This document shows, in pieces, positions 10,585 through 27,066 of a DNA stretch of 64,000 nucleotides; positions within the stretch are counted from its first letter, which is position 1; each line of letters begins with the position of its first letter. The DNA comes from Ignavibacteria bacterium UBA2373. Its GTDB lineage: Bacteria > Bacteroidota > Ignavibacteria > Kapaibacteriales > UBA961. The notes under the pieces are model-generated. The model did no database searches. It was not told the origin of the DNA and saw only the letters and a program-made list of their open reading frames with translations. The position numbers and the translations under genes were made by a program. Location: the NCBI GenBank assembly GCA_002344005.1, contig DDTD01000046.1, positions 317 through 64,316 on the forward strand, written 5' to 3'.

Positions 10585-13455
10585 TTACAGTTGTATTTTC
10601 TTGACATTCATCCCTGATTTTCCGAAGAGAACAATAAAATATGTACCTGAAATTTTTTGTTGAACGGGTATTGTTATTTCATTCTCTCCCCGATAAGGTG
10701 ATGAATATTCATAGACTGTAGTTCCTTGTATATTATACATAATGCAGCGTTCAATCAATGACTCGGTCTGTTGTTTTTTTACCACAATACTTTGCTGAGT
10801 AGGAATGACTACGATATCATCATTAAGTGCAATATAGTTTTCTTGAACAGATGTAGTGAATTGCTCTAACCAAGAGACAGCATTATTCACAAGTGCATAA
10901 CGTATTGTTGTATCATTGATGCTTGAGAGATTAAATGCAAAATATGCATTTCTTGTTGAACCATATTCTCTTTGTATCCCATGTATAATCGTTGTATTTT
11001 TTTTATCCGTAATAATAGAAGCCGCATCCTGAGCATCAAGTTGCAATGTTGGAACCGGAATAACTTCTAAACCCAAGTAATGATTTAGTTGCGGTAATTG
11101 AACAGCAATATTCTGCAAATTACCAAATGTGCTATTGGATTGTACGCTCTGCCAAATGCGCTTTCCGTCATCGCCTTTTGCAGACTGTGGAACTTCTTTA
11201 ATTTTTGCACCGAATAGTTTCAGTAAATCATTGCCTTTTCCTTCGAGTGTATAAAGTGAAATCGGGTCATCACCTATCAATAAAACTTCGATACCCTTTT
11301 TTTGCATATCCTGCATAATTGCAGCATGAATATCATTCATAAAACCATGAGTGCCGCAATTCCAAATAACGGTTTCGGGATTTGAAGTCTCATCGTACCA
11401 ACGCAAAAATTCTTCACTTGTCATTGATTGATAATATCGTTTTTGAGTTTTTGCAATATCCTTCATCAATGAATAATTTTCTCGAGTTGCATCCTCAATA
11501 ATAATTTTTTTTAGATTAATGGAAGCAAAAGTAAATGATAGTGTTTTATAGATATTCTGTGTTTTGCGGTCATAACACTGAATGACAAAACGTGCAATAC
11601 CTGATTTTTTATGTGTTGTAATCTCAAGAGGTAAGACTGTTTGTTGATTATTACCGATACTATATTCTTCATTTGGTAGAATGACTTCCCATCCATCGGG
11701 TATGCTTGAATTGGGAGCTAAGCGAAGTGCAGGTTCTATTGATTCATTTGTCCCATTTACTATGGTTATATCAGCTTTTTGAATTTCATCAATTGTATAA
11801 AATGATTGATTAGCAAAACAATGTATTTTCTGATTAAATGTCACTTTTTTGACAGTACTTTCAATTTGGTCAACGAAATAAATATCACCATCTGCGTCAA
11901 ATTCGATGCCTGCTATACCTTTTGCACCTGTTTCTATACTTTCAATAAATGTTGGCTTTTGCGATTCATGAAGCCGATAAAGATATATTTTTCCATTTTC
12001 TCTATCACTTACCGCCATTAAGCTATAATATATATCAATCCCAACGGGCTTATTTAATCCTTCTGTTATATATGGTTCATAAAGAGCATCTTTCATTTCC
12101 ACAAACTCAGCAAGCCGTTCATCACGAGGCGATTGAACCGTTAATTTCTTTGCAATTGTACCTGATTGAGTTTGTAGTCTATAGATAGAGTTGCCATCAA
12201 TATAATAAAGCCATGATGATGACTTATCAAGCACTAAATGGGAAGGAAGATTATGCTCTCTTTTCGTCAGTTTAATTTGGCTGAATCGTCTTACGCTGCC
12301 ATCACGATGGTCTGTTCCGCCAATTTCATGGGGATTGGCAAAATCATAACGACAAATGTCATTGTACATATTATCGTTCACCCAATAGACATTGTTTTTT
12401 TCATGAGCAATACCCATAGTAAATGGACTTTGATGCAACATATCCAAATGACTTGCCAAACGTTGTTTCACCTGATCGAAAGGTCCTTGATTGCGTCGAG
12501 CAAATATTGCAGTATCTGATGCCCATAATGTCGGTCCCATAAAATCCATTTGAGGCACAGTATTTTGTTTGGGTTCTCCACTTTGCGCTGTGCCGAATGT
12601 GCCATTATCACCAAAATCAATCGCCATTGTTCGCCACATAAAATGCGATGCTGCATAATCTCTGCGTTTTTCAATAGTTTGATTATTTTTTCCCGTATTT
12701 CGTATAATTGCTATACCTTCACCTGCTTGATTAGTTCCTGTTACCACCCAGAGTTCATTTGGATGAAATATAGCAGAATTGAATGACAAATCAACAGGGT
12801 TAATAATATCGGGATATGATGCGATGGTTGTGATTGTAAATTTATCATTAGAGAGTAGTCTATCGGTCGCTTGATTCTTTTTCTGCGAATAATATCGCAC
12901 TTCATTGAGTGACTTTTCAATGAGTTTCTCTATGTCCATGAAAGGTTCATCGCCGTATGTAGCAAAAACAAGTGTGCTTTTATGAACTATCATAGCCACG
13001 TGCAAATCAATGTCTTTTTCTTTATTAAAAGCAGAAAGAGATGCAGCACCTTCATTATTCGTATCTTCAACAAATGTGAACACCTCAGAAAATGAATTTT
13101 TTTTGGCAAAAATATCCAAATCTTTTTGCTTTTCAGAACTTACAGCTATTACTCGGATTCCATTACGGCGCAGTATTTCTGTTTGCTTATTGAGATTGTA
13201 AAGCTGTTCAGCACAGTGAATGCATTGCGTTCCGAGAAATCGAATAAAGATAATGGGATGATGCTTAGAGAGAGCAAGAACATCAATGCCTTGTGAACCT
13301 ATTGACAGTGTTTTCGGTAAAAGTAAATGCGGTTCTTTAGGTAATGTGACAAATGGCATAGACTTCATCATGGGATGAGATGTCATACTGTCGCCCGCAG
13401 TGAGTACTGCACATGAAAAAAGTAATGAAGCAAGGAATGTAACAAAATGTTTCAT
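10585..13455 (-). CDS. secreted redoxin (thioredoxin-fold, CxxC) fusion protein with a T9SS C-terminal sorting domain
   Basis: Start taken at Met14 (MKHFVTFLASLLFSCAVL signal). AhpC/TSA-like segment FIRFLGTQCIHCAEQLYNL..GIRVIAVSS. About 600 aa of unknown fold. C-terminus CIMYNIQGTTVYEY..ISGTYFIVLFGKSGMNVKKIQL is T9SS-CTD-like. Confidence 0.6.
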   Translation of the reverse strand: MKHFVTFLASLLFSCAVLTAGDSMTSHPMMKSMPFVTLPKEPHLLLPKTLSIGSQGIDVLALSKHHPIIFIRFLGTQCIHCAEQLYNLNKQTEILRRNGIRVIAVSSEKQKDLDIFAKKNSFSEVFTFVEDTNNEGAASLSAFNKEKDIDLHVAMIVHKSTLVFATYGDEPFMDIEKLIEKSLNEVRYYSQKKNQATDRLLSNDKFTITTIASYPDIINPVDLSFNSAIFHPNELWVVTGTNQAGEGIAIIRNTGKNNQTIEKRRDYAASHFMWRTMAIDFGDNGTFGTAQSGEPKQNTVPQMDFMGPTLWASDTAIFARRNQGPFDQVKQRLASHLDMLHQSPFTMGIAHEKNNVYWVNDNMYNDICRYDFANPHEIGGTDHRDGSVRRFSQIKLTKREHNLPSHLVLDKSSSWLYYIDGNSIYRLQTQSGTIAKKLTVQSPRDERLAEFVEMKDALYEPYITEGLNKPVGIDIYYSLMAVSDRENGKIYLYRLHESQKPTFIESIETGAKGIAGIEFDADGDIYFVDQIESTVKKVTFNQKIHCFANQSFYTIDEIQKADITIVNGTNESIEPALRLAPNSSIPDGWEVILPNEEYSIGNNQQTVLPLEITTHKKSGIARFVIQCYDRKTQNIYKTLSFTFASINLKKIIIEDATRENYSLMKDIAKTQKRYYQSMTSEEFLRWYDETSNPETVIWNCGTHGFMNDIHAAIMQDMQKKGIEVLLIGDDPISLYTLEGKGNDLLKLFGAKIKEVPQSAKGDDGKRIWQSVQSNSTFGNLQNIAVQLPQLNHYLGLEVIPVPTLQLDAQDAASIITDKKNTTIIHGIQREYGSTRNAYFAFNLSSINDTTIRYALVNNAVSWLEQFTTSVQENYIALNDDIVVIPTQQSIVVKKQQTESLIERCIMYNIQGTTVYEYSSPYRGENEITIPVQQKISGTYFIVLFGKSGMNVKKIQL

Positions 13456-13515
13456 AAATTCGACTCTATCTTGATATGTAATGGAATTTCTCATACCAAG
13501 ATACGCATTTATTCA

Positions 13516-14289
13516 TCATGTTTCAATACGTTGCTCATAAAATGCATCAGAACACGTTCGAATACGAACGCCATGCGTATCATCAATGGTAATAAATGTT
13601 GATGGTATATCAGTCCAACAGCCTGAATTTACATAAGTTACACCATCAGAAGTCTTCATGGTAGCTACGTGAGTATGACCACAAAAAATATAGTCGCATT
13701 GTCGTAACCGCCCATACTCGAGTGCATCATCCGCCACTTTTTCTACGATACGGATAAAACGCTTACTTCGTTGTTTTATCCAACGGCTCAGTCTTTGTTG
13801 TTCGCCGCCAATCATTTGAATTCCTGTATAAAGTCGGGTGGCAACTTCCGTAATCACAGGTTTGTCATAGATAAATTCATCAAACTGATGTCCATGGAGA
13901 GCTATCATTTTCTTATCATTAAAAACCCAGATATACTCTTCAACAACTTCTACACCTAATAAATGGGATAATGTTTCTGCAATACCGTCATGATTACCTA
14001 TCACCCAAATTACTTCTCGCCCATGACGAGGGTGAGATAATGAACGTATTAAGGAGAGAAATTTCCAATCTTTTTTCTTCAATCGTTTAAAATTGAGATC
14101 ATCAAAGACATCACCATTTAAAATGAGTCTTTTGAAACGAAAACGTTTTAACAATTGAATAAGCTGTTGACTTCTCGAGACCAGAGAACCTAAATGAATA
14201 TCCGAAATGATAATCGTATCAACATCGCCTATTTCTTGCCCAATATCAATATCGTCAACGGTATGAATATTATCGTAAACGAAAGACAT
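13516..14289 (-). CDS. metallophosphoesterase, LpxH-like
   Basis: Calcineurin-like phosphoesterase motifs: IIISDIHLG, LNGDVFD, GNHDG, LHGHQFD, CGHTH. At 257 aa it is similar in size to UDP-2,3-diacylglucosamine hydrolases. Confidence 0.65.
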   Translation of the reverse strand: MSFVYDNIHTVDDIDIGQEIGDVDTIIISDIHLGSLVSRSQQLIQLLKRFRFKRLILNGDVFDDLNFKRLKKKDWKFLSLIRSLSHPRHGREVIWVIGNHDGIAETLSHLLGVEVVEEYIWVFNDKKMIALHGHQFDEFIYDKPVITEVATRLYTGIQMIGGEQQRLSRWIKQRSKRFIRIVEKVADDALEYGRLRQCDYIFCGHTHVATMKTSDGVTYVNSGCWTDIPSTFITIDDTHGVRIRTCSDAFYEQRIET

Positions 14290-15040
14290 AGAAAAATTGT
14301 TGAATAAATGATAAAGGATACTTTTGTGCTAAACCATAGATACCTGCTTTTTCCTTGTTCGGGAAATATGCAGTACCGAACATCCAATCCCACACGGCTA
14401 ATTTTGTCGAAAAATTTTTATCAAAAGCTTTTTCATCATTCGCATGATGCCAACGGTGCATTTCCGGTCCATTAAAAAAATATCGAAGGATACCCATAGA
14501 AATATCTGTATTGGAATGAATAAACATACCCCAGACGGCATCAATCATACCTTTATACACAGCCACTTCAGGCGAAGCTCCCAACAAAAACATTGGCGCA
14601 AACTCAACTGTTTGATTAATAAGTATCTCAAAGAAATGTGAACGCGATCCGGAAAGCCAATCTACCTCGATTGAAGAATGATGTGCCTCATGAATTCTCC
14701 AAAGTAGAGGAATTTTATGCTGAAAGCGGTGGAACCAATATATATAGAAGTCATGCAATATAAAAAAGAATACGAATTGTTGCCATAGGGAAAATTTTGA
14801 GTCAAAATGAACATAAAACTCGAGACCTAAATTTTGCAACCATTGAATTATATAATAAATACAGATTCCTGCAACATAGCTTTGAACCACTGTATAGAGG
14901 ACAAAATCATTAAAAAATCCTTCACGAAATACTTTCTGTCCTTTATTATAGGGAATAAATCTTTCCAAGAGTATAATACATATTGCTGCAATAACAACAA
15001 TAAAACCGGTTATAATTTCAAGTGATAAGTCTAAAATCAT
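14270..15040 (-). CDS. fatty acid hydroxylase / sterol desaturase superfamily membrane protein
   Basis: Histidine boxes HRFQH, HEAHH and HRWHH in a protein with several hydrophobic segments. ATGA overlap with the upstream NeuB-like gene. Confidence 0.75.
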   Translation of the reverse strand: MILDLSLEIITGFIVVIAAICIILLERFIPYNKGQKVFREGFFNDFVLYTVVQSYVAGICIYYIIQWLQNLGLEFYVHFDSKFSLWQQFVFFFILHDFYIYWFHRFQHKIPLLWRIHEAHHSSIEVDWLSGSRSHFFEILINQTVEFAPMFLLGASPEVAVYKGMIDAVWGMFIHSNTDISMGILRYFFNGPEMHRWHHANDEKAFDKNFSTKLAVWDWMFGTAYFPNKEKAGIYGLAQKYPLSFIQQFFYVFRLR

Positions 15041-15927
15041 GCAACTAATTCAGTAGAAACTCGACGTAATTTTTTTCTTGACGATAGCTCGCTGTCATAA
15101 ACCCTTTTGATGCCATCTCCCAAAGCTTTTTCTATATCACGGATGTTTGAAACTAATCGAATAAGCCCAACCATCTCGACTGAGGCTGCCTGATCGGTTC
15201 CCCACATTGCACGATCTAAAGTAATATGCCTTTCAACAAAACAAGCACCTAAGGTAACTGCTGACCATGTTGGTGCTAATCCTACTTCATGACCGGAATA
15301 TCCGATTGGAATATCAGGGTATAAGCTACGTAATGTGCGAATCATATTTAAATTTAATTCTTCAATCTTGCAAGGATACGACGATGTCGAGTGTGCTATA
15401 AGTAATGCTGAAGTATCTAATGAATCAATGGCTTCGGTAATCTCTTCCATCGTACTCATACCTGTGGAAATAATTAATGGTTTTCCGGTATTTTGCATCG
15501 TTTGTAATAATGGAATATCCGTAAGTGATGCGGATGCAGCTTTATAACATGGCGGATTAAATTGTTCAATAAACTCAACTGAAGGCTCATCCCAACATGA
15601 TGCAAACCATTGAATATTTTTTTGTTTACAATATTGGTCAATTTCATCAAATTCATTGAAGCCGAATTCTACTTTATGACGATATTCTAAATAAGTCATT
15701 CTTCCCCAAGGGGTATCTCTTTCAATATCCCATTGTTCACGCGGAACACATAACTCCGGTGTTCTTTTTTGAAACTTCACAGCATCACAACCCGCAATTG
15801 CCGCAGAATCAATCATTTTTTTTGCAAGTTCAACGGAGCCATTATGATTAATACCAATCTCAGCAATAACATATACAGAGTGTTTATCTCCAACGGCTTT
15901 ATCGCCAATTAAAACAGACTTTCTCAT
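15037..15927 (-). CDS. NeuB-family (N-acylneuraminate / pseudaminate synthase-like) PEP-condensing enzyme, apparently without the C-terminal SAF domain
   Basis: VYVIAEIGINHNGSVELAKKMIDSAAIAGCDAVKFQKR is the classic NeuB N-terminal motif. The protein is 296 aa, shorter than the ~340-350 aa of typical NeuB/PseI. Confidence 0.8.
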   Translation of the reverse strand: MRKSVLIGDKAVGDKHSVYVIAEIGINHNGSVELAKKMIDSAAIAGCDAVKFQKRTPELCVPREQWDIERDTPWGRMTYLEYRHKVEFGFNEFDEIDQYCKQKNIQWFASCWDEPSVEFIEQFNPPCYKAASASLTDIPLLQTMQNTGKPLIISTGMSTMEEITEAIDSLDTSALLIAHSTSSYPCKIEELNLNMIRTLRSLYPDIPIGYSGHEVGLAPTWSAVTLGACFVERHITLDRAMWGTDQAASVEMVGLIRLVSNIRDIEKALGDGIKRVYDSELSSRKKLRRVSTELVA

Positions 15928-15955
15928 TGTTTACCTTTCATAAAATAATAAATTT

Positions 15956-16759
15956 TTATATAATTGTCCAACCGCCATCAACAATAAGATTAGCACCTGA
16001 AACATACGATGATGCATCACTTGCCAGAAAAACCAGCGCACCTTTATAATCTTCCTTATTCGCCATACGACCTAAGGGCGTTTTCTTCGAATAGTTCTCG
16101 ACAAAGTCTTCATCTTGATATGCGAATACTCCGCCCGGTGAAATACAATTTACCCTAATATTTTTTTCACCCCAATATGCTGCTAAATACTTTGTAAACT
16201 GTATTACTGCTCCTTTTGATGTCGGATACACAGGAGATTTCCACATCAAGCGTTCTCCATTTTTTTTCAGGTATATCGATTGATCCGGAGCAACGACACC
16301 ATACGTTGATGCAATATTAATAATTGAACCTGATTTCTGTTGTGCCATAACACTCCCAAGATATTGACAGCATAAAAACACGCCTGTAACATTAACGTCT
16401 AACACTTTTTTCCAAACATAAAGAGGATAATCTTCAAATGATCCTTGTATATGATTGTCGCGTTTTTCGACCATATCGTTAATGGCAGCATTATTCACAA
16501 GTATATCAATCGTACCATACTGCGATACTATCCTTTCTCTGACACTTGATAATGACGCTGAATCAGTAACATCAAGTCGTATAGTTGAAATTTGATGACG
16601 AATTTGTTCAGGAAAAATATCGTCATGACATCGCTCAATATCGGCAGCAATAACGTGCGCACCGGCTTCTGCCAGAGCTATACAATGTTGCAGTCCTAAC
16701 AATCCGTTTGCCCCTGTGACAACAGCAATTTTACCCGAAAGTGAAAAATTATTATCCAT
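15956..16759 (-). CDS. SDR family oxidoreductase
   Basis: Rossmann motif VVTGANGLLG, NNAA, and catalytic YPTSK (YxxxK); 267 aa. Confidence 0.85.
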   Translation of the reverse strand: MDNNFSLSGKIAVVTGANGLLGLQHCIALAEAGAHVIAADIERCHDDIFPEQIRHQISTIRLDVTDSASLSSVRERIVSQYGTIDILVNNAAINDMVEKRDNHIQGSFEDYPLYVWKKVLDVNVTGVFLCCQYLGSVMAQQKSGSIINIASTYGVVAPDQSIYLKKNGERLMWKSPVYPTSKGAVIQFTKYLAAYWGEKNIRVNCISPGGVFAYQDEDFVENYSKKTPLGRMANKEDYKGALVFLASDASSYVSGANLIVDGGWTII

Positions 16760-18083
16760 GTACTAAATGTGGTTTAGAATGAAAGTGTGTTGTTTTTCGA
16801 AATACCGGTTCTAATATTTTTCCATGAATCATTTCTCGTATATTACCATTATACAAAACATCATGAATAAATGGAAGAATTTCACTGTATGCAAAGAGCG
16901 TATGAAGAATATCCTGATCACTGTGTGAAAATGACAATGTATGAAATCCATTCCAAAGAATTCCGTATCTGAGAAACTCTTGCTGTAAAAGTGTTTTTAT
17001 CTCCAAGGCAGGAAATGTTGAGTGCTGAATTGATATCATTGTTCGTGTTGGATTTCCGATACAATCACACCATGGTATCTGATGTTTTTGTATAATGCTT
17101 TTAATTCCTTGTTGTAGTTTTTTTCCTTGTTGATGCAAATAGTCTGGTACATCATATTTTCGTATTTCATTCATTGTGGATTTTGCCGCGGCTAAAGATA
17201 AAGCTTCACCGCCGAATGTTGTAAAAAAGAAGACATCTTTTTCCAATATTGACATGATATTCGATTTACCGCATAATACTGAGAGGGGCATACCGTTGGC
17301 GATTGCCTTAGAAAAACACAATAAGTCTGCATCTATATCATAATATTCCTGTGCGCCTCCTAATGCGAGACGCCACCCCGTCCACATTTCATCAAAAATA
17401 AGTACGGTACCAAACTTATGACATAATTCACGTAATTCAAGTAAAAAACCGTTCTTTGGTTCTGTAAATGTTATGGGTTCTAGAATGACGGCAGCCGTCT
17501 GTTCACTGATACTGTCCAAGAGAGAATCAACATTATTATAATCAAATGTAAAAACGTGATTTTTCGTGGTTTCAGGTATTCCTTTATCACGGTCTGTGAC
17601 TGAGATATACCAATCGTGCCATCCATGATAACCACAACATAAAATTTCATCACGTTGTGTATATGCACGAGCAATACGAACTGCGGCACTTGTAACATCC
17701 GCACCAGTTTTGCTAAAACGTACCATTTCCGCATTAGGTACAATAGAGGTAATTAATTCTGCGACCTCATATTCAAGACTATGCGGTAATGAAAATGTTA
17801 TTCCTTTTAATAATTGTTCTTTTATTGCTGTATCTACAGCTTCATAACAATACCCTAAAGAAAGTGGTCCTACAGCCATTGATAAATCCAGATATTCATT
17901 TCCATCAATATCAATTATTTTACTGCCTTTACCTTTATCAGCAAATATTGGTGCAACCCCAAAAGAATATTGCCCAACTCCTTTTGCTAATGTTTGAGTT
18001 ACTCCCGGAATAATATGTCGAGCTTTCTCGTATAGTTCCAAAGATTCTTGTATAGAAGGTAATGTCAACATAAAGAAATGCAA
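16752..18083 (-). CDS. class-III (glutamate-1-semialdehyde aminomutase-like) PLP-dependent aminotransferase
   Basis: FDEMWTGWR and FSKAIANGMP (PLP lysine), plus an overall GSA-AT-like pattern. The start could instead be Met5 (18071). Confidence 0.8.
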   Translation of the reverse strand: MHFFMLTLPSIQESLELYEKARHIIPGVTQTLAKGVGQYSFGVAPIFADKGKGSKIIDIDGNEYLDLSMAVGPLSLGYCYEAVDTAIKEQLLKGITFSLPHSLEYEVAELITSIVPNAEMVRFSKTGADVTSAAVRIARAYTQRDEILCCGYHGWHDWYISVTDRDKGIPETTKNHVFTFDYNNVDSLLDSISEQTAAVILEPITFTEPKNGFLLELRELCHKFGTVLIFDEMWTGWRLALGGAQEYYDIDADLLCFSKAIANGMPLSVLCGKSNIMSILEKDVFFFTTFGGEALSLAAAKSTMNEIRKYDVPDYLHQQGKKLQQGIKSIIQKHQIPWCDCIGNPTRTMISIQHSTFPALEIKTLLQQEFLRYGILWNGFHTLSFSHSDQDILHTLFAYSEILPFIHDVLYNGNIREMIHGKILEPVFRKTTHFHSKPHLVHG

Positions 18084-18085
18084 AT

Positions 18086-19000
18086 TTATAAAGAATTTAA
18101 GATTTTTTGAGCAATCGAGTGACCGTTCATTTTTTCATATACAAGCACGTCATTTAGTAAACCGGGTCTATGCCATGATGAAAAATTAATTGTATTAACT
18201 GTGGCAGAAAGACCCCGTGCAGCAATGAGTTCAGCAATAATTGTATAGAGTGCTCCTGTTGAAAAGTGATCTTCAACAATATAAACAACATCTGCATCAA
18301 GTATATTACGTATAATAACTTCCTCATCAATAGGGCGCAATGTACGCATATTAATGACTTTTACACCAAAACCGTTTTCCTCCAAAATTGTTGCCGCGTC
18401 AAGTACCTGAGCGCATAAAAAACCGTGAGAAAAGATAACAATATCATTTCCTTCGCCAATTTCTTCTGCTTTTCCAATCTCAAAATTAGTATGGTGAATA
18501 GTAGCCGGCTTATTTATATAGCGAATATACCAAGGCATCCCTGAATCAATAATATGTACCATGCCCTGTAATAATTCATCTTCATCCATTGGAGAAAATA
18601 TCCGGACAGTTGGAATTAATCGCATCAATCCGATGTCTTCTAATGATTGATGCGTCGGACCATTCGCTTCTGATAAAATACCGGGAATAAATCCAACCAT
18701 ACAGACTGGTAATGCAGCTATCCCCACATCGGTGCGAATAAATTCGAAGGCTCGCATTGTTAGGAATGATGCTAATGCATGTGTGATTACTGTATTACCG
18801 CGTAATGCCAAGCCGGCAGCCATACCAATCATCGTTTGTTCAGCAATCCCTACATCAATAAATTTATGTCCTATTTTTTGCGGCAATGTACGTATATGTG
18901 CTCTATTTTCAGCTGTCATTACATAAAGCTTATCATTTTTTTCAACCGATTCTACTAATAGTTGTTCGTATGTCATAAATATTTCTTCATTATCGTACAT
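18086..19000 (-). CDS. transketolase family protein, C-terminal (pyrimidine-binding) subunit
   Basis: FIDVGIAEQTMIGMAAGLA and GPTHQSLEDIGLMR motifs; 304 aa; overlaps the N-terminal subunit gene by 11 nt. Confidence 0.85.
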   Translation of the reverse strand: MYDNEEIFMTYEQLLVESVEKNDKLYVMTAENRAHIRTLPQKIGHKFIDVGIAEQTMIGMAAGLALRGNTVITHALASFLTMRAFEFIRTDVGIAALPVCMVGFIPGILSEANGPTHQSLEDIGLMRLIPTVRIFSPMDEDELLQGMVHIIDSGMPWYIRYINKPATIHHTNFEIGKAEEIGEGNDIVIFSHGFLCAQVLDAATILEENGFGVKVINMRTLRPIDEEVIIRNILDADVVYIVEDHFSTGALYTIIAELIAARGLSATVNTINFSSWHRPGLLNDVLVYEKMNGHSIAQKILNSL

Positions 19001-19853
19001 GAAAAATAGGCGAATCTAATTCTTTGGCAGTAGTACCATGTAATTCATTTAGTAATTTTTGAATATCTTCATCAGTAAAATTACAGAACCACCTGTCTGC
19101 TCTTTCTTCTATACTCGGCACGCCTTTACCACGCACCGTATCTGCAATAATGATATGAGGCGTATTTGTATGTTCATCACAGAATTTCATAGCCTTATCA
19201 ATGGAATAAAAATCATGACCATCTATTCTTTGAACATTCCATCCAAATGCGGAGAATTTATTGTCTAATGATTCCAAGGGTATAAGTTCTTCTGTTTTTA
19301 CATTAGCTTGAAATTTATTTCTATCAACAATTACAATAATATTATGCAATTTTAGTGCAGATGCGACAAGAAATCCCTCCCATAGAGAACCTTCATTTAA
19401 CTCACCATCGCCAACAATAACTACAATCTTATTATCTTGTTTTTTTTGAAGACAATCATATGCCACACCCATAGCAACAGAGAGCAAATGCCCTAAAGAC
19501 CCTGAATGAAATTCAATACCCGGGATAGATGTGTTGGGATGCCAATAAATATTGTCACTAATATGTAAATGGTTTGAAAGCCTTTGTTTATCTATAAATC
19601 CAAATTCCGCCAATGTTGCATAGAGAGCAGGAACATCATGACCTTTTGAAAGAAAAAGATAATCACGATTCGGATTAGTCGTACTGTCGGGACTGACACG
19701 CAAATATTGACCATACAAATAGACAATAATATCTGCACACGATAATGATGCTCCTGTAAAACATCCGCCGTTCGTACTCATAAGCAAGATACTTTCCCGT
19801 ACACGTAAAGCACTCGATATTAACTGATTATATTGCAGCTGTTTGTCCATCAT
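18990..19853 (-). CDS. transketolase family protein, N-terminal (TPP-binding) subunit
   Basis: LSKGHDVPALYA, GSLGHLLSVAMG and GDGELNEGSLWE (TPP-binding GDG..N); 287 aa. Confidence 0.85.
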   Translation of the reverse strand: MMDKQLQYNQLISSALRVRESILLMSTNGGCFTGASLSCADIIVYLYGQYLRVSPDSTTNPNRDYLFLSKGHDVPALYATLAEFGFIDKQRLSNHLHISDNIYWHPNTSIPGIEFHSGSLGHLLSVAMGVAYDCLQKKQDNKIVVIVGDGELNEGSLWEGFLVASALKLHNIIVIVDRNKFQANVKTEELIPLESLDNKFSAFGWNVQRIDGHDFYSIDKAMKFCDEHTNTPHIIIADTVRGKGVPSIEERADRWFCNFTDEDIQKLLNELHGTTAKELDSPIFHVR

Positions 19854-20652
19854 AATATTCTATTCTTGTTTGAGATTTATCCACAGTTTTTAATTGATGT
19901 AAATGTTTTCTATACCAGTTAACTCCTACATATTTATTATTAATCTCCATAATTTCCGGATGATCTTCTACTAGTGATAGAATATCATATAAACCGAAAG
20001 CAGGGTTAGACGGGTACAATTTTTTATAGACCTCGGATATGAAATGATAATCTTCAGGATAGTCCAGAGTCCACCGATGTGACATTGAGAAATTATACCC
20101 CAATTCCCATGCACAATTGCCAATTCTGAACAAGTCCGGATTATCCCAGATGAACGGTGTGGTATGTTCACGTTCATACGATTTTTTTGCACGAGTATGG
20201 GTATATTCGAGTACACTCATCGGAATTACTTCCACATCGTTTCCGTCCGGATATGTCGCAGGGTGAAGATTGCTGACAAAATCATACTCTTCTCTGTTAT
20301 CTTGATAATACTTTATCACTTTGTCAATAATTTTAGGATCAATTAAAGGACAGTCGGAAGGAATTTTTACGACAACATCGGCATTATATTCTAATCCTGC
20401 TCTGTAGTGTCTATCGAGCACATCTTTTTCATCACCTCGAAAAAATTCAATTTCTTCATTATGGCATAATTTAGCAATAAGATCATCGGAAGTTTCCTTT
20501 GTCGTAGCAACAACAACCTTTGAAAAATAGCGAGCTTGTTTTATCCGTTCTATTTGACGAAACAAAATACTTTTTCCTAGAATAGGTAACAGAACCTTTC
20601 CGGGCAGTCGAGTAGAATTCATTCGAGCTTGGACAATAATAATAATATTCAT
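19828..20652 (-). CDS. SpsF-type cytidylyltransferase (CTP_transf_3-like)
   Basis: Start taken at MNIIIIVQARMNSTRLPGKVL, the acylneuraminate/KDO cytidylyltransferase-type motif. This ATG lies 1 nt after the upstream stop. The track extension to 20727 overlaps the upstream gene. Confidence 0.75.
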   Translation of the reverse strand: MNIIIIVQARMNSTRLPGKVLLPILGKSILFRQIERIKQARYFSKVVVATTKETSDDLIAKLCHNEEIEFFRGDEKDVLDRHYRAGLEYNADVVVKIPSDCPLIDPKIIDKVIKYYQDNREEYDFVSNLHPATYPDGNDVEVIPMSVLEYTHTRAKKSYEREHTTPFIWDNPDLFRIGNCAWELGYNFSMSHRWTLDYPEDYHFISEVYKKLYPSNPAFGLYDILSLVEDHPEIMEINNKYVGVNWYRKHLHQLKTVDKSQTRIEYYDGQTAAI

Positions 20653-20653
20653 A

Positions 20654-21691
20654 TCAGACTTTTGAATAGAGTAAGGTGTGATGATTAAATTCTTCATTTT
20701 GATTAATATCTTGAGCTTGAAATCCATTCAGAATTCTTTCACATACTTGTGAAATCGCTGAGGCAGAAGTTCCGCCGTTTTGTATCGGTAATAATTTACG
20801 CAATTCATGAATCGGAAAGTCAGAATACACCTCTTTACCAAGAGCTATTCCTGTATAAACTAATGTTGAAAATTTTGTGATAAGGACATCACAATTTGCG
20901 ATCATTTCATGTGCATTTCCGTCATGATAGATAATTGCATTCGGACATATTTTTTCAATTTCCCGGTATGCTCTTTGAAATTTTTCGTTAGGATGGAGTT
21001 TAAAGATAATCTGTCTGCCGTCAGCGATATTGCATACTTTGCGAATAAATTTCTTTCTGTTTTCGTAACGGAAGGTTTCACGCGTGTCTGATGTTGCTGC
21101 AAGAACAAAATTTCTATATGGGAATGAATTATTGCAATACATGAGGCAGTTATCATAATTTGGTATTCCTGTGACGACAATCTTTTCCGATTTTACACCT
21201 TTATTTATAAAAAGTGATTTATAGTTTTCGGAAGCAACACAAAATACTGTATAAGCATCAGAAAGTCCTGTCATGGAAGTGCTCGCCAAGTAACGTGGTA
21301 AACGAAAATTTTTAACAATGTGGTAGAGTCTATTCTCAGGATCTGTCATACCTTCTTGAACGAGGACAATGGCAGAACCACGAATGTTACGAGGAATTAT
21401 CAAATCTGAACATGTGACAACAAGGTCATAGTGACGCGATTCACCTCGAGGGTCCATTAAACGTCGCGATTGATGAAGTAATGAAAGGGACTTTTTTTGA
21501 AACTCACCACCTAATATGGTAAAATCAAGTAAACCTCTTTCTGCAGCATACCGTAGTAACCCATCCGCATAATAGGTGGTGAAGTAACATTCAACATCTT
21601 TCAACTCATCCGCAATAGCCATCATCTGAGTTGTTTGATTCGCTGATCCGCAAATGAAAAGTATGTTTTTTGTCTGCATAGTCGGACTCAT
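20654..21691 (-). CDS. putative GT-B-fold glycosyltransferase / nucleotide-sugar hydrolase (MurG/PseG/MGDG-synthase-like)
   Basis: N-terminal KNILFICGSANQTTQMMAIA and C-terminal HPNEK..MIANCDVLITKFSTLVYTGIALGKEV resemble GT28-type GT-B proteins. The assignment is by pattern only. Confidence 0.45.
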   Translation of the reverse strand: MSPTMQTKNILFICGSANQTTQMMAIADELKDVECYFTTYYADGLLRYAAERGLLDFTILGGEFQKKSLSLLHQSRRLMDPRGESRHYDLVVTCSDLIIPRNIRGSAIVLVQEGMTDPENRLYHIVKNFRLPRYLASTSMTGLSDAYTVFCVASENYKSLFINKGVKSEKIVVTGIPNYDNCLMYCNNSFPYRNFVLAATSDTRETFRYENRKKFIRKVCNIADGRQIIFKLHPNEKFQRAYREIEKICPNAIIYHDGNAHEMIANCDVLITKFSTLVYTGIALGKEVYSDFPIHELRKLLPIQNGGTSASAISQVCERILNGFQAQDINQNEEFNHHTLLYSKV

Positions 21692-21933
21692 TAGTTCGAA
21701 TGCAAAATTCGCTCTTACATATTACCTGCCTATTATCATATCCTCAAGAGTCTGTGAACAAATGACATTCTTGTTTATATTTTGGTTACGTAGATTATCA
21801 ACTCATTAAATGTAGTAGTCAAGAGCATAAAAAGCAGCATTACTCTTTCTTTCTCCAATAGAACCATACCATTTTTTTTGAGCAGAGATTATGATTACAC
21901 ATCCCCAAGACAAGTATATATGCGTGTAATGCG

Positions 21934-21941
21934 TAATTTTG
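21934..21941 (+). promoter_or_regulatory. candidate Bacteroidota-type -7 promoter box (TAnnTTTG)
   Basis: taattttg lies 27 nt before the ATG at 21969, inside the 277-nt divergent intergenic region. Confidence 0.3.
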
Positions 21942-21968
21942 AGTAATTTTTTTGAGAAATGACCATTA

Positions 21969-24859: not shown

Positions 24860-24941
24860 AAGTCTGTTTATAGTGTTGTTATTGCTAATGACTCTGTCAT
24901 ATTTACCATGACATTACGGCTAACAAAATATAAACAGACTT
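24860..24941. repeat. 13-bp perfect inverted repeat (aagtctgtttata / tataaacagactt) with a 56-nt spacer between convergent genes
   Basis: Arms at 24860-24872 and 24929-24941, with an inner hairpin atgac-tct-gtcat at 24888-24900. The right arm overlaps the stop of the minus-strand gene. Confidence 0.6.
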
Positions 24942-26178: not shown

Positions 26179-27066
26179 TCAAGTGGTGATATGTAAGCGA
26201 ATAAACAACCCCTCTGCTTCGGCAAGCAATTGATGTTGTTCATTGCGTATTTCACCCTTGATGACGAACTTGCGTCCATGTTCGCTTATTTGTTTGCCTT
26301 TCAGGTACAAAGTCTGCCCAATGGGAGTTGGTCTGTGATAGCGAATGTTCAATGTACCTGTTGGTGCTTTAACCCCTTGTCCTGAAAGAGTTTTTCCCAT
26401 CACTTCATCGAGCAAAAGAGCCACAAATCCACCATGCATTATTCCTAAAGAACCATTCATAAACGATGGTGGCAAGAACCATGATTCTGCTGCTTTTTCT
26501 TGTTCATTATAGAGGAATGAAAGTTGTAAACCATGAGGATTAGCATCACCACACCCAAAGCAAGTATTGTCCTTTCTCGGGTGCAGAAATCGAAGATGGC
26601 TCGGCATACTTGTCGGTTCAACAATTGAAGTTTTTCCTGTATCGGGGTGACGGAATTGGAAGTACTCTCCGAATGGCTCAATATGTTCGGTAAGGTGCAT
26701 AAGTGCAGGCATTGCAATGCGCCCTTTGCCACCTACTTTTGCTGTATGATATAAAATTCCATCATCTGACACTGTTAAAGATTCCTGTTCAAAAGGCACC
26801 GATAATGTATCATGATACCATAATTTATTATTTCCCCATCGTTGATAGACTATCGGCGTATCAATGGGCTTAACAAAATTAATTTCATAACCTGACGGCG
26901 AATAATACGGGTAATCATTATATTTGCCGGTTGTGTTTTCTTTTAATCGAGTAAAAAAAACATGAATAAATGGTTTGTCATCTATTTCCACCCCGTTATG
27001 AAGAACATTTCCTCGCTCATCTATCTCAAAAAAATATTCCTTATGTTTTGCAGTTGTTTCACTCAT
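26179..27066 (-). CDS. fusion protein: N-terminal domain of unknown function + PaaI-type hotdog thioesterase
   Basis: The C-terminal half has CFGCGDANPHGLQLSF..GIMHGGFVALLLDEVMG, typical of PaaI/YigI-like thioesterases. The N-terminal ~160 aa are unassigned, with a DUF1285-like pattern (FEIDERGNVLHNGVEI..FFTRL). Confidence 0.6.
   Translation of the reverse strand: MSETTAKHKEYFFEIDERGNVLHNGVEIDDKPFIHVFFTRLKENTTGKYNDYPYYSPSGYEINFVKPIDTPIVYQRWGNNKLWYHDTLSVPFEQESLTVSDDGILYHTAKVGGKGRIAMPALMHLTEHIEPFGEYFQFRHPDTGKTSIVEPTSMPSHLRFLHPRKDNTCFGCGDANPHGLQLSFLYNEQEKAAESWFLPPSFMNGSLGIMHGGFVALLLDEVMGKTLSGQGVKAPTGTLNIRYHRPTPIGQTLYLKGKQISEHGRKFVIKGEIRNEQHQLLAEAEGLFIRLHITT

What the first reader, a model, noticed from the sequence alone, without database searches (positions are those of the whole stretch)
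13516..21691. Non-canonical nonulosonic-acid-like operon: GT-B + SpsF cytidylyltransferase + split transketolase + class-III aminotransferase + SDR + SAF-less NeuB + fatty-acid hydroxylase + LpxH-like phosphoesterase
Nine minus-strand genes are packed with overlaps or tiny gaps. In transcription order the junctions are: 1-nt gap at 20653; 26-nt overlap; 11-nt overlap; 2-nt gap; 8-nt overlap; 28-nt gap; ATGA overlap at 15037-15040; 20-nt overlap. This argues for one translationally coupled operon. Three members recall pseudaminic, legionaminic or sialic acid pathways: the NeuB/PseI-like synthase, the CTP_transf_3 cytidylyltransferase and the PseG-like GT-B fold. The canonical partners are missing: the 4,6-dehydratase, the DegT-type aminotransferase, the N-acetyltransferase and the NeuC-type epimerase. 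In their place are a two-subunit transketolase (C2 ketol transfer), a GSA-type class-III aminotransferase and an SDR. The NeuB homologue is short (296 aa, apparently no SAF domain). It is translationally coupled to a membrane di-iron fatty-acid hydroxylase and an LpxH-like pyrophosphatase, which hints that the product is attached to, or is itself part of, a lipid (a glycolipid or lipid-A-like head group). I do not recognise this combination as a described pathway.
Basis: partly seen in the sequence, partly recalled or inferred. Interest (0 to 1): 0.7.

Follow-up and report, generated by a model that had tools for sequence, protein, structure and literature searches.

The report
Uncharacterised sialic-acid-like sugar-lipid operon
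This is a real nine-gene operon, conserved across many bacterial phyla and apparently undescribed, that most likely builds an activated sialic-acid-like acidic sugar and attaches it to a membrane lipid.

Summary
The organism is a Candidatus Kapabacteria/Kapaibacterium bacterium.

The SAF-less NeuB homologue is 63-83% identical in at least about 590 species representatives. The gene order GT-B-like, cytidylyltransferase, (split transketolase), class-III aminotransferase, SDR, (KdsC/KDN-9-P-type phosphatase), NeuB, (FA_hydroxylase) recurs in Ignavibacteriota, Chlorobiota, Bacteroidota, Myxococcota, Calditrichota and Chloroflexota.

- **Optional parts:** the transketolase pair is missing from about a third of complete cassettes. 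The LpxH-like esterase occurs only in a few lineages, nearly all of which lack the phosphatase.
- **Lipid link:** this is supported independently of the window.
  - The GT-B-like protein is fused or adjacent to an MprF-type LPG_synthase_TM membrane domain in relatives.
  - A bona fide OlsF ornithine-lipid synthase follows the OlsE-like hydroxylase in Ignavibacteriales.
  - The esterase model matches LpxH-lipid X structures.

My best reading has three steps. A sugar phosphate plus PEP gives a 3-deoxy-ulosonate phosphate, which is aminated. It is then CMP-activated and transferred to a membrane lipid. The sugar's carbon number, the position of the amine and the acceptor lipid are all unknown.

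I found no paper describing this cassette. I rate it a new variant of a known kind, interest about 0.62.

The parts
20654..21691 (-). GT-B-fold protein (345 aa), a putative CMP-ulosonate:lipid transferase.
   Evidence: Only sub-threshold Pfam/NCBIfam hits: Epimerase_2 22 bits, Glyphos_transf 17, TIGR04396 44, BFO_1060 32. AF2 model pLDDT 84.5. Foldseek matches UDP-sugar 2-epimerases, TagF-like CMP/CDP enzymes and a polysialyltransferase. The family profile hits only TagF-like Cps3D in the PDB. KLHPNE and TKFSS motifs are invariant or nearly so. No hydrophobic segment. Relatives are fused to LPG_synthase_TM. First gene of the cassette in 45 loci.
19828..20652 (-). SpsF/KdsB-type cytidylyltransferase (274 aa from ATG 20652).
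   Evidence: CTP_transf_3 114 bits. All KdsB/PseF equivalog scores fall far below their cut-offs. Best PDB match is 6OEW, 'Cytidylyltransferase', 144 bits. Fused to TK-N in L066 and L076.
18990..19853 (-). Transketolase N-terminal (ThDP-binding) subunit.
   Evidence: Transketolase_N 111 bits; NF004559 216 bits over positions 10-287 of 627. Present in about two thirds of complete cassettes.
18086..19000 (-). Transketolase C-terminal (pyrimidine-binding plus C) subunit.
   Evidence: Transket_pyr 81 bits and Transketolase_C 62 bits. It travels with the N subunit in related loci.
16752..18083 (-). Class-III (GSA-aminomutase-like) PLP aminotransferase.
   Evidence: Aminotran_3 157 bits. PRK06209 359 bits against a cut-off of 486. 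Found in 54 of 83 loci.
15956..16759 (-). Classical SDR oxidoreductase.
   Evidence: adh_short_C2 175 bits. Its nearest NCBIfam models are sugar-acid dehydrogenases: gluconate 5-dehydrogenase 186, PRK09186 183, KduD 152. Found in 61 of 83 loci.
15037..15927 (-). SAF-less NeuB-family PEP-condensing synthase (296 aa).
   Evidence: NeuB 252 bits covering the full 241-position model, with no SAF hit. TIGR03569 250 against 400 and PseI 207 against 340. Best PDB match is the 290-aa 6NCS. It is 63-83% identical across phyla, with an invariant KLRR C-terminus.
14270..15040 (-). Membrane di-iron hydroxylase (FA_hydroxylase family, OlsE-like).
   Evidence: PF04116 108 bits. OlsE equivalog 118 against 475. 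Three His boxes (HRFQH, HEAHH, HRWHH) and two N-terminal hydrophobic segments. It directly follows NeuB in 51 of 83 loci and in the HAD-NeuB-FAH trio of L088.
13516..14289 (-). LpxH-fold metallophosphoesterase. A lineage-restricted accessory and possibly the substitute for the missing HAD phosphatase.
   Evidence: Metallophos_2 and Metallophos. Homologues are named LpxH by NCBI and JGI. AF2 model pLDDT 83.8. The top 25 Foldseek hits are LpxH structures. It sits at the cassette in WIN, L005, L029, L045 and L085-L087, but stands alone in the P0265 locus.
21692..21968 (.). 277-bp divergent intergenic region upstream of the first gene, the presumed promoter region.
   Evidence: It lies between the cassette and the plus-strand PHP-domain gene at 21969. 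No Rfam family matches here. The promoter scan is not above background.

Best explanation
The operon encodes a self-contained pathway for an activated sialic-acid/Kdo-like sugar and its attachment to a membrane lipid.

**Shown**
- The enzyme families present.
- Their conserved order across phyla.
- The regular presence of a KdsC/KDN-9-P-type phosphatase in relatives.

**Inferred steps**
1. The SAF-less NeuB homologue condenses PEP with an aldose phosphate to give a 3-deoxy-2-ulosonate phosphate. Where the dedicated split transketolase is present, it only boosts or tailors the supply of the sugar phosphate.
2. The phosphate is removed by the HAD phosphatase in most lineages. In the window's lineage the LpxH-fold esterase may do this instead.
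3. The SDR oxidises a hydroxyl and the class-III aminotransferase converts the carbonyl to an amine. The order relative to step 1 is unknown.
4. The SpsF-type enzyme makes the CMP-sugar.
5. The GT-B-like protein transfers the sugar to a membrane lipid. It carries HP and SS-type motifs as in CMP/CDP-using GT-B enzymes and has an MprF-like fusion partner in relatives.
6. The membrane di-iron hydroxylase hydroxylates the lipid or its head group.

The acceptor is not identified. Candidates are an ornithine-type aminolipid, phosphatidylglycerol, or a lipid A-like or sphingolipid molecule.
For: **Families.**

**Conserved order.** Polyangiaceae and a 6.1-Mb genome show the same cassette. In 83 loci the only recurrent gene families around NeuB are SDR (61), aminotransferase (54), HAD (54), FA_hydroxylase (51), GT-like (45), CTP_transf_3 (42), TK-C (32) and TK-N (25). 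Of 48 loci with enough flank, 30 hold GT-like, CTP3, AT3, SDR and NeuB under strict clustering.

**Sugar-phosphate route.** The neighbouring HAD passes the KdsC family cut-off (TIGR01670 148.5 against 107). It scores 157 against the KDN-9-P phosphatase equivalog.

**NeuB.** It is catalytically intact by conservation. The H213 and H234 pair and the KFQK, KAASAS and STG motifs are invariant. A KLRR C-terminus, also invariant, replaces the SAF domain.

**Transferase reading.** The GT-B fold has CMP/CDP-enzyme matches. The family profile hits only TagF-like Cps3D. HP and FSS motifs are conserved.

**Lipid link.**
- LPG_synthase_TM genes are adjacent in 7 loci of two phyla.
- Three representative proteins fuse that domain N-terminally to the GT-like domain, the MprF architecture.
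- OlsF (719 bits against a cut-off of 620) follows the hydroxylase in Ignavibacteriales.
- The hydroxylase's only NCBIfam hit is OlsE.
- The esterase model matches LpxH-lipid X structures over its whole length.
- PhyH-type dioxygenases occur in three cassettes that lack the membrane hydroxylase. A hydroxylation step therefore seems to be kept.
Against: - No enzyme was assayed, and no product is known from any carrier.
- The GT-like model matches UDP-sugar 2-epimerases at least as well as transferases. Pfam's best sub-threshold hit is also Epimerase_2.
- The window itself has no HAD, LPG_synthase_TM or OlsF gene.
- LPG_synthase_TM adjacency is seen in only 7 of 83 loci. OlsF adjacency is confined to one order and could be lineage synteny.
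- Five HAD-less cassettes have no esterase either. The esterase co-occurs with HAD in L029 and stands alone in another genome, so the 'replaces HAD' step is weak.
- Chloroflexota and Acidimicrobiia cassettes lack the hydroxylase.
- The HAD-NeuB-FAH trio in L088 ties the hydroxylase to the sugar genes rather than to the transferase.
Confidence: 0.5

Rival explanations
1. An ordinary surface-glycan nonulosonic/ulosonic acid pathway. The cassette only makes a CMP-sugar for a capsule, an S-layer or other protein glycan, or the LPS core or O-antigen. The first gene is either a NeuC/PseG-type nucleotide-sugar hydrolase/epimerase or a glycan glycosyltransferase. The hydroxylase and esterase are unrelated neighbours.
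For: NeuB plus CTP_transf_3 is the hallmark of such pathways. The GT-like model's top Foldseek hits are UDP-sugar 2-epimerases, including NeuC 5xvs. There are weak hits to TIGR04396 'surface carbohydrate biosynthesis protein' and to a Tannerella BFO_1060-type transferase. A Wzx-like gene lies at 9145-10584.
Against: The hydroxylase follows NeuB in 51 of 83 loci across several phyla, and also where the rest of the cassette is absent. LPG_synthase_TM fusions and adjacency exist. The loci contain no polymerase, no Wzy/Wzz and no glycan GT set, and their flanks are housekeeping genes that differ between lineages. A hydrolysing epimerase gives a free sugar, which makes the conserved KdsC-type phosphatase pointless when no kinase is present. 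The Wzx-like gene is not conserved next to the cassette.
Confidence: 0.25
2. An LPS inner-core or lipid A decoration. The sugar is a Kdo substitute or extra Kdo-like residue placed on lipid A. The LpxH-fold protein is the cell's real LpxH. The hydroxylase acts like KdoO/LpxO on the lipid A-core.
For: The esterase has an LpxH fold, and NCBI and JGI name its homologues LpxH. The cytidylyltransferase's nearest NCBIfam models are KdsB. The HAD belongs to the KdsC family. Most carriers are diderm.
Against: The cassette occurs in Anaerolineae, Ardenticatenaceae, Promineifilum and Acidimicrobiia, which from general knowledge are not LPS producers. The esterase is absent from most cassettes. No LpxH, KdsB or WaaA equivalog score is reached. 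An MprF-type flippase-like partner is not part of the MsbA-based LPS route.
Confidence: 0.12
3. Not a glycoconjugate. The NeuB-type aldol condensation, transaminase and SDR build a soluble amino-keto-acid metabolite, in the way the aminoDAHP/AHBA route uses a split transketolase, an oxidoreductase, an aminotransferase, a phosphatase and a PEP-condensing enzyme. The cytidylyltransferase only activates an intermediate.
For: The enzyme-class parallel with the rifamycin AHBA genes comes from my own knowledge and was not tested. The cytidylyltransferase is fused to the TK-N subunit in two genomes.
Against: The transketolase is dispensable. The cassettes contain no downstream tailoring, cyclase or export genes. 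The conserved GT-B protein and its membrane partners are left unexplained.
Confidence: 0.05

Closest known systems
Phosphorylated sialic-acid routes: the Bacteroides thetaiotaomicron Kdn pathway (KDN-9-P synthase, KDN-9-P phosphatase, CMP-Kdn synthetase) and vertebrate NANS/NANP/CMAS
   Same: A NeuB-family synthase is paired with a small KdsC-type HAD phosphatase and a CTP_transf_3 cytidylyltransferase. The neighbouring HAD scores 157 bits on the KDN-9-P phosphatase model.
   Different: The HAD score is below that model's cut-off of 180, and the window has no HAD at all. The synthase lacks the SAF domain. The cassette adds a class-III aminotransferase, an SDR, an optional split transketolase, a GT-B-like protein and a membrane hydroxylase.
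Pseudaminic, legionaminic and N-acetylneuraminic acid pathways (PseB-I, LegB-I/Ptm, NeuABC)
   Same: PEP condensation by a NeuB homologue followed by CMP activation. The SDR resembles PRK09186, which I recall as the 'flagellin modification protein A' model (183 bits, below the cut-off of 255).
   Different: The cassette and its relatives contain no 4,6-dehydratase, DegT-type aminotransferase, N-acetyltransferase, or recognisable NeuC/PseG/LegG. NeuB and PseI equivalog cut-offs are not reached. There is no SAF domain.
Kdo8N formation in Shewanella (KdnB oxidation, KdnA transamination of Kdo)
   Same: The logic I propose for the SDR plus aminotransferase pair: oxidation of a hydroxyl on a 3-deoxy-ulosonic acid, then transamination. 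This comparison rests on my own knowledge.
   Different: The enzyme families differ: an SDR and a class-III aminotransferase here. The condensing enzyme is NeuB-type, not KdsA-type. The position of amination is unknown.
MprF (lysyl-phosphatidylglycerol synthase/flippase) and KpsS/KpsC (Kdo transfer to lyso-phosphatidylglycerol)
   Same: Relatives fuse an N-terminal LPG_synthase_TM domain to the cytosolic GT-like domain, as MprF fuses it to its synthase domain. Transfer of a CMP-activated ulosonic acid to a phospholipid has the KpsS precedent (my own knowledge).
   Different: The window has no LPG_synthase_TM gene. The transferase domain is unrelated to the MprF synthase domain. It was not compared with KpsS/KpsC.
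Ornithine-lipid synthesis and hydroxylation (OlsF, OlsE)
   Same: The hydroxylase's only NCBIfam hit is OlsE. A protein above the OlsF equivalog cut-off is encoded directly after it in Ignavibacteriales.
   Different: The OlsE score is 118 against a cut-off of 475. OlsF is not next to the cassette outside Ignavibacteriales and is not in the window. To my knowledge no glycosylated ornithine lipid has been described.
Leptospira SAF-less NeuB and cytidylyltransferase (PDB 6NCS, 6OEW)
   Same: These are the best solved-structure matches: 137 bits to a 290-aa NeuB without SAF, and 144 bits to a 250-aa cytidylyltransferase.
   Different: They are only distantly related, compared with 63-83% identity within the family studied here. 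To my knowledge their function is uncharacterised. I did not examine their genomic context.
AminoDAHP/AHBA pathway (RifL, RifK, RifM, split transketolase Rif15A/B, RifH)
   Same: The same set of enzyme classes: an oxidoreductase, an aminotransferase, a phosphatase, a two-subunit transketolase and a PEP-condensing synthase (my own knowledge).
   Different: The protein families differ for every step except the transketolase. The transketolase is optional here. The product is CMP-activated rather than cyclised.

Membership tests
NeuB/PseI/LegI nonulosonic acid synthases | NeuB TIM-barrel domain (PF03102). | tested here: met
   252 bits over model positions 1-241 of 241.
NeuB/PseI/LegI nonulosonic acid synthases | C-terminal SAF/antifreeze-like domain that completes the sugar site. 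| tested here: not met
   No SAF hit. The protein is 296 aa and its relatives are 290-328 aa, ending in an invariant KLRR motif.
NeuB/PseI/LegI nonulosonic acid synthases | Equivalog-level score for NeuB or PseI. | tested here: not met
   TIGR03569 249.9 against a cut-off of 399.65. TIGR03586 207.1 against 340.25.
NeuB/PseI/LegI nonulosonic acid synthases | Metal-binding His pair and PEP-binding Lys/Ser residues. | tested here: inconclusive
   H213, H234, K51, K54, K129, S132, S134 and S154 are invariant in ten diverse members. The mapping onto the N. meningitidis NeuB residues is from memory, not from a structural alignment.
Canonical Pse/Leg/Neu5Ac pathways | NDP-sugar 4,6-dehydratase, DegT-type aminotransferase, N-acetyltransferase and NeuC/PseG/LegG hydrolase in the cluster. 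| tested here: not met
   None of the nine genes and none of the recurrent neighbours belongs to these families. The GT-B-like gene has only a sub-threshold Epimerase_2 hit.
CMP-ulosonate synthetases (KdsB, NeuA, PseF, LegF) | CTP_transf_3 domain. | tested here: met
   114 bits against a cut-off of 22.6.
CMP-ulosonate synthetases (KdsB, NeuA, PseF, LegF) | Equivalog-level score for a characterised subfamily. | tested here: not met
   Best KdsB model 70 bits against 255. PseF 25.7 against 205.7.
Phosphorylated Kdn/Neu5Ac route | KdsC/KDN-9-P-type HAD phosphatase next to the synthase. | tested here: not met
   No HAD in the 64-kb window (tblastn). It is present in 54 of 83 related loci and passes TIGR01670 there.
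Transketolase | ThDP-binding N domain plus pyrimidine-binding and C domains. | tested here: met
   Split over two genes. Pfam scores are 111, 81 and 62 bits. Substrate specificity was not tested.
CMP/CDP-dependent GT-B transferases (TagF-like, bacterial sialyltransferases) | GT-B fold with a C-terminal HP motif and an S-S/T motif that bind the CMP phosphate. | tested here: inconclusive
   The fold is confirmed. KLHPNE is invariant and TKFSS conserved. The profile hits TagF-like Cps3D only. UDP-sugar 2-epimerases match the model equally well.
LpxH (UDP-2,3-diacylglucosamine diphosphatase) | Calcineurin-like core with a helical lipid-binding insertion. | tested here: met
   The top 25 Foldseek hits are LpxH structures, E 5.6e-10 to 5.9e-08, TM 0.49-0.66. 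The model has helices at 138-195.
LpxH (UDP-2,3-diacylglucosamine diphosphatase) | Sequence-level membership. | tested here: not met
   No LpxH model among the NCBIfam hits at E <= 0.01. No LpxH chain in the PDB at E <= 1. The LpxH names come from the source annotations only.
OlsE ornithine-lipid hydroxylase / FA_hydroxylase superfamily | Membrane di-iron enzyme with three His boxes. | tested here: met
   PF04116 107.9 bits against a cut-off of 31. HRFQH, HEAHH and HRWHH are present, with two N-terminal hydrophobic segments.
OlsE ornithine-lipid hydroxylase / FA_hydroxylase superfamily | OlsE equivalog score. | tested here: not met
   118.1 against a cut-off of 475.
MprF-like lipid modification/flipping modules | LPG_synthase_TM domain coupled to a cytosolic transferase. 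| tested here: not met
   Absent from the window. Found fused (P0363, P0366, P0373) or adjacent (L006, L010, L014, L048, L015, L047, L070) in relatives.

The most novel reading that the evidence does not exclude
The cassette specifies a previously unrecognised class of bacterial membrane lipid. Its head group would be a CMP-derived amino-3-deoxy-ulosonic acid, a 'sialo-lipid'. The sugar would be made from a sugar phosphate by a SAF-less NeuB with late oxidation and transamination. An MprF-like or stand-alone GT-B transferase would attach it to an aminolipid, phospholipid or sphingolipid. The system is widespread in Ignavibacteriota, Chlorobiota, Bacteroidota, Myxococcota and Chloroflexota.

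It could also be the long-missing genetic basis of the neuraminic-acid-containing aminoglycosphingolipid reported from Chlorobium limicola f. thiosulfatophilum 6230. As I recall, that strain is the same as DSM 249. The genome of Chlorobaculum thiosulfatiphilum DSM 249 carries the HAD-NeuB pair (L017).
Probability: 0.35. Interest if true: 0.8.

Novelty: new variant of a known kind. Interest (0 to 1): 0.62.

Why it matters
If the reading is right, hundreds of environmental and some cultured bacterial species make an acidic, sialic-acid-like sugar by a route that shares only two enzymes with the textbook pathways. They would also place it on a membrane lipid rather than on a polysaccharide or protein.

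- **New enzymology.** It would define a substrate class for SAF-less NeuB enzymes, which includes solved but unassigned structures such as 6NCS.
- **An orphan family assigned.** It would give a function to a tight GT-B family of only about 540 sequence clusters among 1.84 billion.
- **Lipid chemistry.** It could explain some of the 'unidentified aminoglycolipids' in polar-lipid profiles of Bacteroidota and relatives. It could also explain the old Chlorobium aminoglycosphingolipid.
- **Practical use.** The cassette is a compact 7-9-gene target for heterologous expression. Cultured carriers (Melioribacter, Rosettibacter, Ignavibacterium) make the hypothesis directly testable.

Tried and rejected
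**Literature.** Eight full-text searches found no description of the cassette. They combined transketolase, NeuB, GSA-aminotransferase, cytidylyltransferase, sterol desaturase, OlsF/OlsE, ulosonic acid/glycolipid, Kdn and aminoglycosphingolipid. Only a citation of the Chlorobium aminoglycosphingolipid turned up.

**Signal scans.** The promoter and terminator scans were uninformative. Rfam found no regulatory RNA near the operon.

**'The esterase replaces the HAD phosphatase'.** I keep this only as a weak idea. Six of seven esterase-bearing cassettes lack HAD (WIN, L005, L045, L085/L086, L087, against L029). However, five HAD-less cassettes have no esterase, and some of the six are near-duplicates.

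**The two esterase types.** The window's esterase and the Ignavibacteriales 'MPE2' are not orthologues. They share only the metallophosphoesterase motifs.

**GT-like plus desaturase fusion.** The GT-like protein fused to a desaturase-like segment (P0374) is a single case. Its C-terminus is not homologous to the window's hydroxylase, so I give it little weight.

**Sphingolipid link within the window.** The gene at 35889-37091 is Spt/Kbl/BioF-like but below the Spt cut-off (481 against 640). It lies 14 kb away, so it is not counted as evidence.

**Chlorobiaceae.** Only the HAD-NeuB pair sits together there, among housekeeping genes.

**Epimerase or transferase.** I could not discriminate the two readings of the first gene by sequence. 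Motif comparison with E. coli WecB from memory showed similarities to both families.

Full report
**1. The observation**

One search lists nine consecutive minus-strand ORFs between 13516 and 21691. The sequence at the first junction shows TGA at 20654-20656, one base, then ATG at 20652. That ATG opens MNIIIIVQARMNSTRLPGKVL, the usual start of an SpsF/KdsB-type cytidylyltransferase. The Pfam match begins at residue 29 of the longer ORF, which fits this start.

The other junctions follow from the coordinates:
- 26-nt overlap
- 11-nt overlap
- 2-nt gap (14 nt if the ATG at 18071 is used instead of the TTG at 18083)
- 8-nt overlap
- 28-nt gap
- the 4-nt ATGA overlap at 15037-15040
- 20-nt overlap

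A 277-bp divergent intergenic region lies upstream. A tenth same-strand gene, a 969-aa AhpC/TSA protein with a T9SS sorting tail, follows after 21 nt. Consensus promoter and terminator scans add nothing, and no Rfam family lies near the operon.

**2. Gene identities**

| Gene | Evidence |
|---|---|
| Cytidylyltransferase | CTP_transf_3, 114 bits; every KdsB/PseF equivalog far below cut-off |
| Split transketolase | Transketolase_N 111; Transket_pyr 81 plus Transketolase_C 62 |
| Aminotransferase | Aminotran_3 157; PRK06209 GSA-type 359, cut-off 486 |
| SDR | 175 bits; nearest models are gluconate 5-dehydrogenase, PRK09186 and KduD |
| NeuB | 252 bits over the whole model, no SAF domain; below both NeuB and PseI equivalog cut-offs |
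| Hydroxylase | FA_hydroxylase 108; its only NCBIfam hit is OlsE, 118 against 475 |
| Esterase | Calcineurin-like phosphoesterase |
| First gene | Sub-threshold GT-B hits only |

The hydroxylase has the three His boxes and two N-terminal hydrophobic segments. The other eight proteins show no convincing membrane span; only the TK-C subunit has two borderline hydrophobic 19-mers. The best solved relatives are a 290-aa SAF-less NeuB (6NCS, 137 bits) and a 250-aa cytidylyltransferase (6OEW, 144 bits).

**3. Organism and distribution**

Identical or near-identical NeuB proteins come from Candidatus Kapabacteria/Kapaibacterium MAGs. The SAF-less NeuB is unusually conserved. It is 70-75% identical in ten members from different phyla, with 135 invariant positions that include a C-terminal KLRR motif.

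The best 80 are 63-83% identical. They come from:
- Ignavibacteriota (including Ignavibacterium album and Melioribacter)
- Chlorobiota
- Chitinophagales, Saprospiraceae, Lewinellaceae and Spirosoma
- Polyangiaceae
- Oligoflexia
- Calditrichaceae
- Gemmatimonadota
- Methylococcaceae
- Anaerolineae and Ardenticatenaceae
- Acidimicrobiia

**4. Conserved neighbourhood**

Look-ups for a Polyangiaceae protein and for a protein on a 6.1-Mb contig returned the same order. tblastn of the window's proteins against 84 loci, and unsupervised clustering of all ORFs in 83 loci, agree. The only families that recur around NeuB are:

| Family | Loci (of 83) |
|---|---|
| SDR | 61 |
| Aminotransferase | 54 |
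| Small HAD hydrolase | 54 |
| FA_hydroxylase | 51 |
| GT-like protein | 45 |
| CTP_transf_3 | 42 |
| TK-C | 32 |
| TK-N | 25 |

They nearly always appear in the order GT-like, CTP3, (TK-N, TK-C), AT3, SDR, (HAD), NeuB, (FAH). Many loci are truncated contigs. Of 48 loci with at least 7.5 kb upstream and 1.5 kb downstream, 30 contain GT-like, CTP3, AT3, SDR and NeuB under strict clustering, and more do so by tblastn.

Flanking genes differ between lineages. The cassette is therefore a mobile functional unit, not inherited synteny.

**5. What varies**

- **Transketolase.** The pair is missing from 10 of the 30 complete cassettes. In I. album (L031) and Melioribacter (L039) the aminotransferase directly follows the cytidylyltransferase. 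The transketolase is thus an accessory, most simply a precursor-supply enzyme. In two Chitinophagales/Puia genomes it is fused to the cytidylyltransferase (559-aa ORF with both domains).
- **HAD phosphatase.** The HAD is 167-208 aa as ORFs were called. It passes the KdsC-family cut-off (148.5 against 107) and comes close to the KDN-9-P phosphatase equivalog (157 against 180). It is present in most cassettes but absent from the window.
- **LpxH-fold esterase.** The window's esterase type occurs at the cassette in the window, L005, L029 (Calditrichaceae, upstream), L045 (Ignavibacteriaceae, divergent) and L085-L087. L085-L087 are Chlorobiota-type MAGs with the identical nine-gene order but different flanks. 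All of these except L029 lack the HAD. One homologue stands alone near ispD and plsY.
- **Hydroxylase.** It follows NeuB even in a Chlorobiales genome where only a 173-aa ORF (unannotated, in the HAD's position), NeuB and FAH are together. In three cassettes without it, a PhyH-type dioxygenase is present.
- **Chlorobiaceae.** These keep only the HAD-NeuB pair, among housekeeping genes.

**6. The first gene**

An AlphaFold model built on 31 homologues is confident (pLDDT 84.5, pTM 0.83) and shows a GT-B fold. Foldseek gives similar scores to three groups:
- UDP-sugar 2-epimerases (8sxw, E 3e-10, TM about 0.55)
- TagF-like enzymes solved with CMP or CDP-glycerol (8a0c, 3l7l)
- a polysialyltransferase with CDP (5wcn)

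The family profile hits only the TagF-like polymerase Cps3D among all PDB sequences, aligning 'cdvlitkfssvvy' with 'cdlLItdYSSiiy'. KLHPNE is invariant in the family. From general knowledge, an HP motif followed by an S-S/T motif marks CMP/CDP-binding GT-B transferases, but epimerases have similar elements.

The family is small and tight: 544 cluster representatives at E <= 1e-3 and 103 at E <= 1e-30, out of 1.84 billion. Three of those representatives are about 700 aa long. They carry an N-terminal LPG_synthase_TM domain (residues 14-319) before the GT-like domain. This is the architecture of MprF, where that membrane domain flips the lipid made by the cytosolic domain (my own knowledge).

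Separate LPG_synthase_TM genes sit immediately upstream of the GT-like gene in four myxobacterial or 'delta' loci. They also sit at the end of the variant cassette in three loci: two Lewinellaceae MAGs and one unclassified Bacteroidota MAG.

A cytosolic epimerase would have no reason for such a partner. A hydrolysing epimerase would also yield a free sugar, which makes the conserved phosphatase pointless. I therefore favour a transferase acting on a membrane lipid, at roughly 60:25 over an epimerase or hydrolase.

**7. Other lipid evidence**

In Ignavibacteriales (L011, L024, L031, L036) the hydroxylase is followed directly by a 590-aa protein that exceeds the OlsF equivalog cut-off (719 against 620). 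A second type of metallophosphoesterase comes next in L011, L024 and L031; L036 has OlsF but not the esterase. Melioribacteraceae carry a NeuB copy next to that esterase, and three of the five loci (L051, L061, L062) also have OlsF, without the rest of the cassette.

The window's esterase was modelled at pLDDT 83.8. Its top 25 structural matches are all LpxH, several in complex with lipid X, aligned over the whole length. By sequence it reaches no LpxH model.

**8. Proposed mechanism**

*Shown:* the enzyme families, the conserved order, and the association with a KdsC-type phosphatase and with membrane-lipid proteins.

*Inferred:*
1. An aldose phosphate plus PEP gives a 3-deoxy-2-ulosonate phosphate. 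The invariant basic C-terminus may bind the substrate phosphate in place of the SAF domain.
2. The product is dephosphorylated.
3. The SDR oxidises a hydroxyl, and the class-III aminotransferase aminates the carbonyl. The SDR's nearest relatives act on C5 of gluconate or 2-keto-3-deoxygluconate. I recall class-III aminotransferases acting on sugar aldehydes and ketones in aminoglycoside pathways.
4. The sugar is activated with CMP.
5. The GT-like protein transfers it to a membrane lipid.
6. The di-iron enzyme hydroxylates the lipid or its head group.

*Unknown:* the carbon number, the position of the amine, the order of steps 1-3, and the acceptor lipid.

**9. Comparison with known systems**

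- **Closest in logic:** the phosphorylated Kdn/Neu5Ac routes.
- **For the amination:** Kdo8N formation in Shewanella.
- **For the transfer:** KpsS-type Kdo transfer to lyso-phosphatidylglycerol, and MprF.

The cassette fails membership tests for the canonical Pse/Leg/Neu5Ac pathways. It has no SAF domain, no dehydratase, no DegT aminotransferase, no acetyltransferase and no clear NeuC/PseG, and it falls below the equivalog cut-offs. Eight literature searches found no description.

One lead is worth noting. Chlorobaculum thiosulfatiphilum DSM 249 carries the HAD-NeuB pair (L017). From memory, this is the same strain as Chlorobium limicola f. thiosulfatophilum 6230. An aminoglycosphingolipid was reported from strain 6230 (cited in PMC11762602), and from memory its sugar was neuraminic acid.

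**10. Verdict**

The finding is real. This is a widespread, compact and apparently uncharacterised variant of ulosonic-acid biosynthesis with a probable lipid destination.

My confidence differs by part:
- about 0.8 for the sugar part of the model
- about 0.5 for the whole model including the lipid target

Noticed in passing
window 30316-30726 (-): Bacterial RNase P class A RNA, 283.8 bits. It is the only Rfam family above its gathering score in the window.
   Followed up: no
window 35889-37091 (+): An alpha-oxoamine synthase family gene. Its best NCBIfam model is the CFB-type serine palmitoyltransferase (481 bits, cut-off 640), followed by BioF/Kbl models. It could be a sphingolipid or sulfonolipid synthase, or simply Kbl/BioF. 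It lies 14 kb from the operon.
   Followed up: partly
window 24940-27066 (-): A 412-aa metallophosphoesterase with LpxG-like and YaeI-like scores (114 bits each, below cut-offs). Next to it is a DUF4505 plus 4HBT thioesterase protein. This is a second lipid-type phosphoesterase close to the operon.
   Followed up: no
window 10585-13494 (-): A 969-aa protein with an AhpC/TSA domain and a T9SS C-terminal sorting domain. It starts 21 nt after the operon's last gene on the same strand. The same neighbour (49% identity) follows the cassette in the closest relative, L005. It may be co-transcribed.
   Followed up: partly
L066 4604-6283; L076 4025-5803: A single ORF fuses the CTP_transf_3 cytidylyltransferase to the transketolase N subunit in two Chitinophagales/Puia MAGs.
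   Followed up: partly
L001 12116-13240; L020 10967-12085; L026 1552-2673; L041 1900-3021; L050 5535-6650: A roughly 373-aa protein family with no Pfam or NCBIfam match lies just downstream of NeuB in four Chloroflexota/Acidimicrobiia cassettes that lack the hydroxylase, and in L001 (one gene further on). A sixth copy lies on the opposite strand in L076, which has the hydroxylase.
   Followed up: partly
L051, L057, L061, L062, L074 (Melioribacteraceae): A NeuB copy sits beside a 300-330-aa metallophosphoesterase. In L051, L061 and L062 an OlsF-like gene is also nearby. None of the other cassette genes lies within 10 kb.
   Followed up: partly
L015, L047, L070 (two Lewinellaceae MAGs and one unclassified Bacteroidota MAG): A variant cassette: HAD, NeuB, GT-like, Gfo/Idh/MocA oxidoreductase, a second type of CTP_transf_3, PhyH dioxygenase (seen in L047 and L070 only) and LPG_synthase_TM. 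It has no class-III aminotransferase, transketolase or FA_hydroxylase. It may make a non-aminated sugar.
   Followed up: partly
L017 4395-5864 (Chlorobaculum thiosulfatiphilum DSM 249); L013, L018, L019: Chlorobiaceae keep only the HAD-NeuB pair (NeuB 71% identical), among housekeeping genes. From memory, DSM 249 is the strain in which a neuraminic-acid-containing aminoglycosphingolipid was reported.
   Followed up: partly
window 7093-9015 (+) and 9145-10584 (+): A full-length DXP synthase, which is a separate ThDP enzyme unrelated to the cassette's transketolase, and a Wzx/MurJ-like Polysacc_synt_3 membrane protein. Neither is conserved next to the cassette in other genomes.
   Followed up: no
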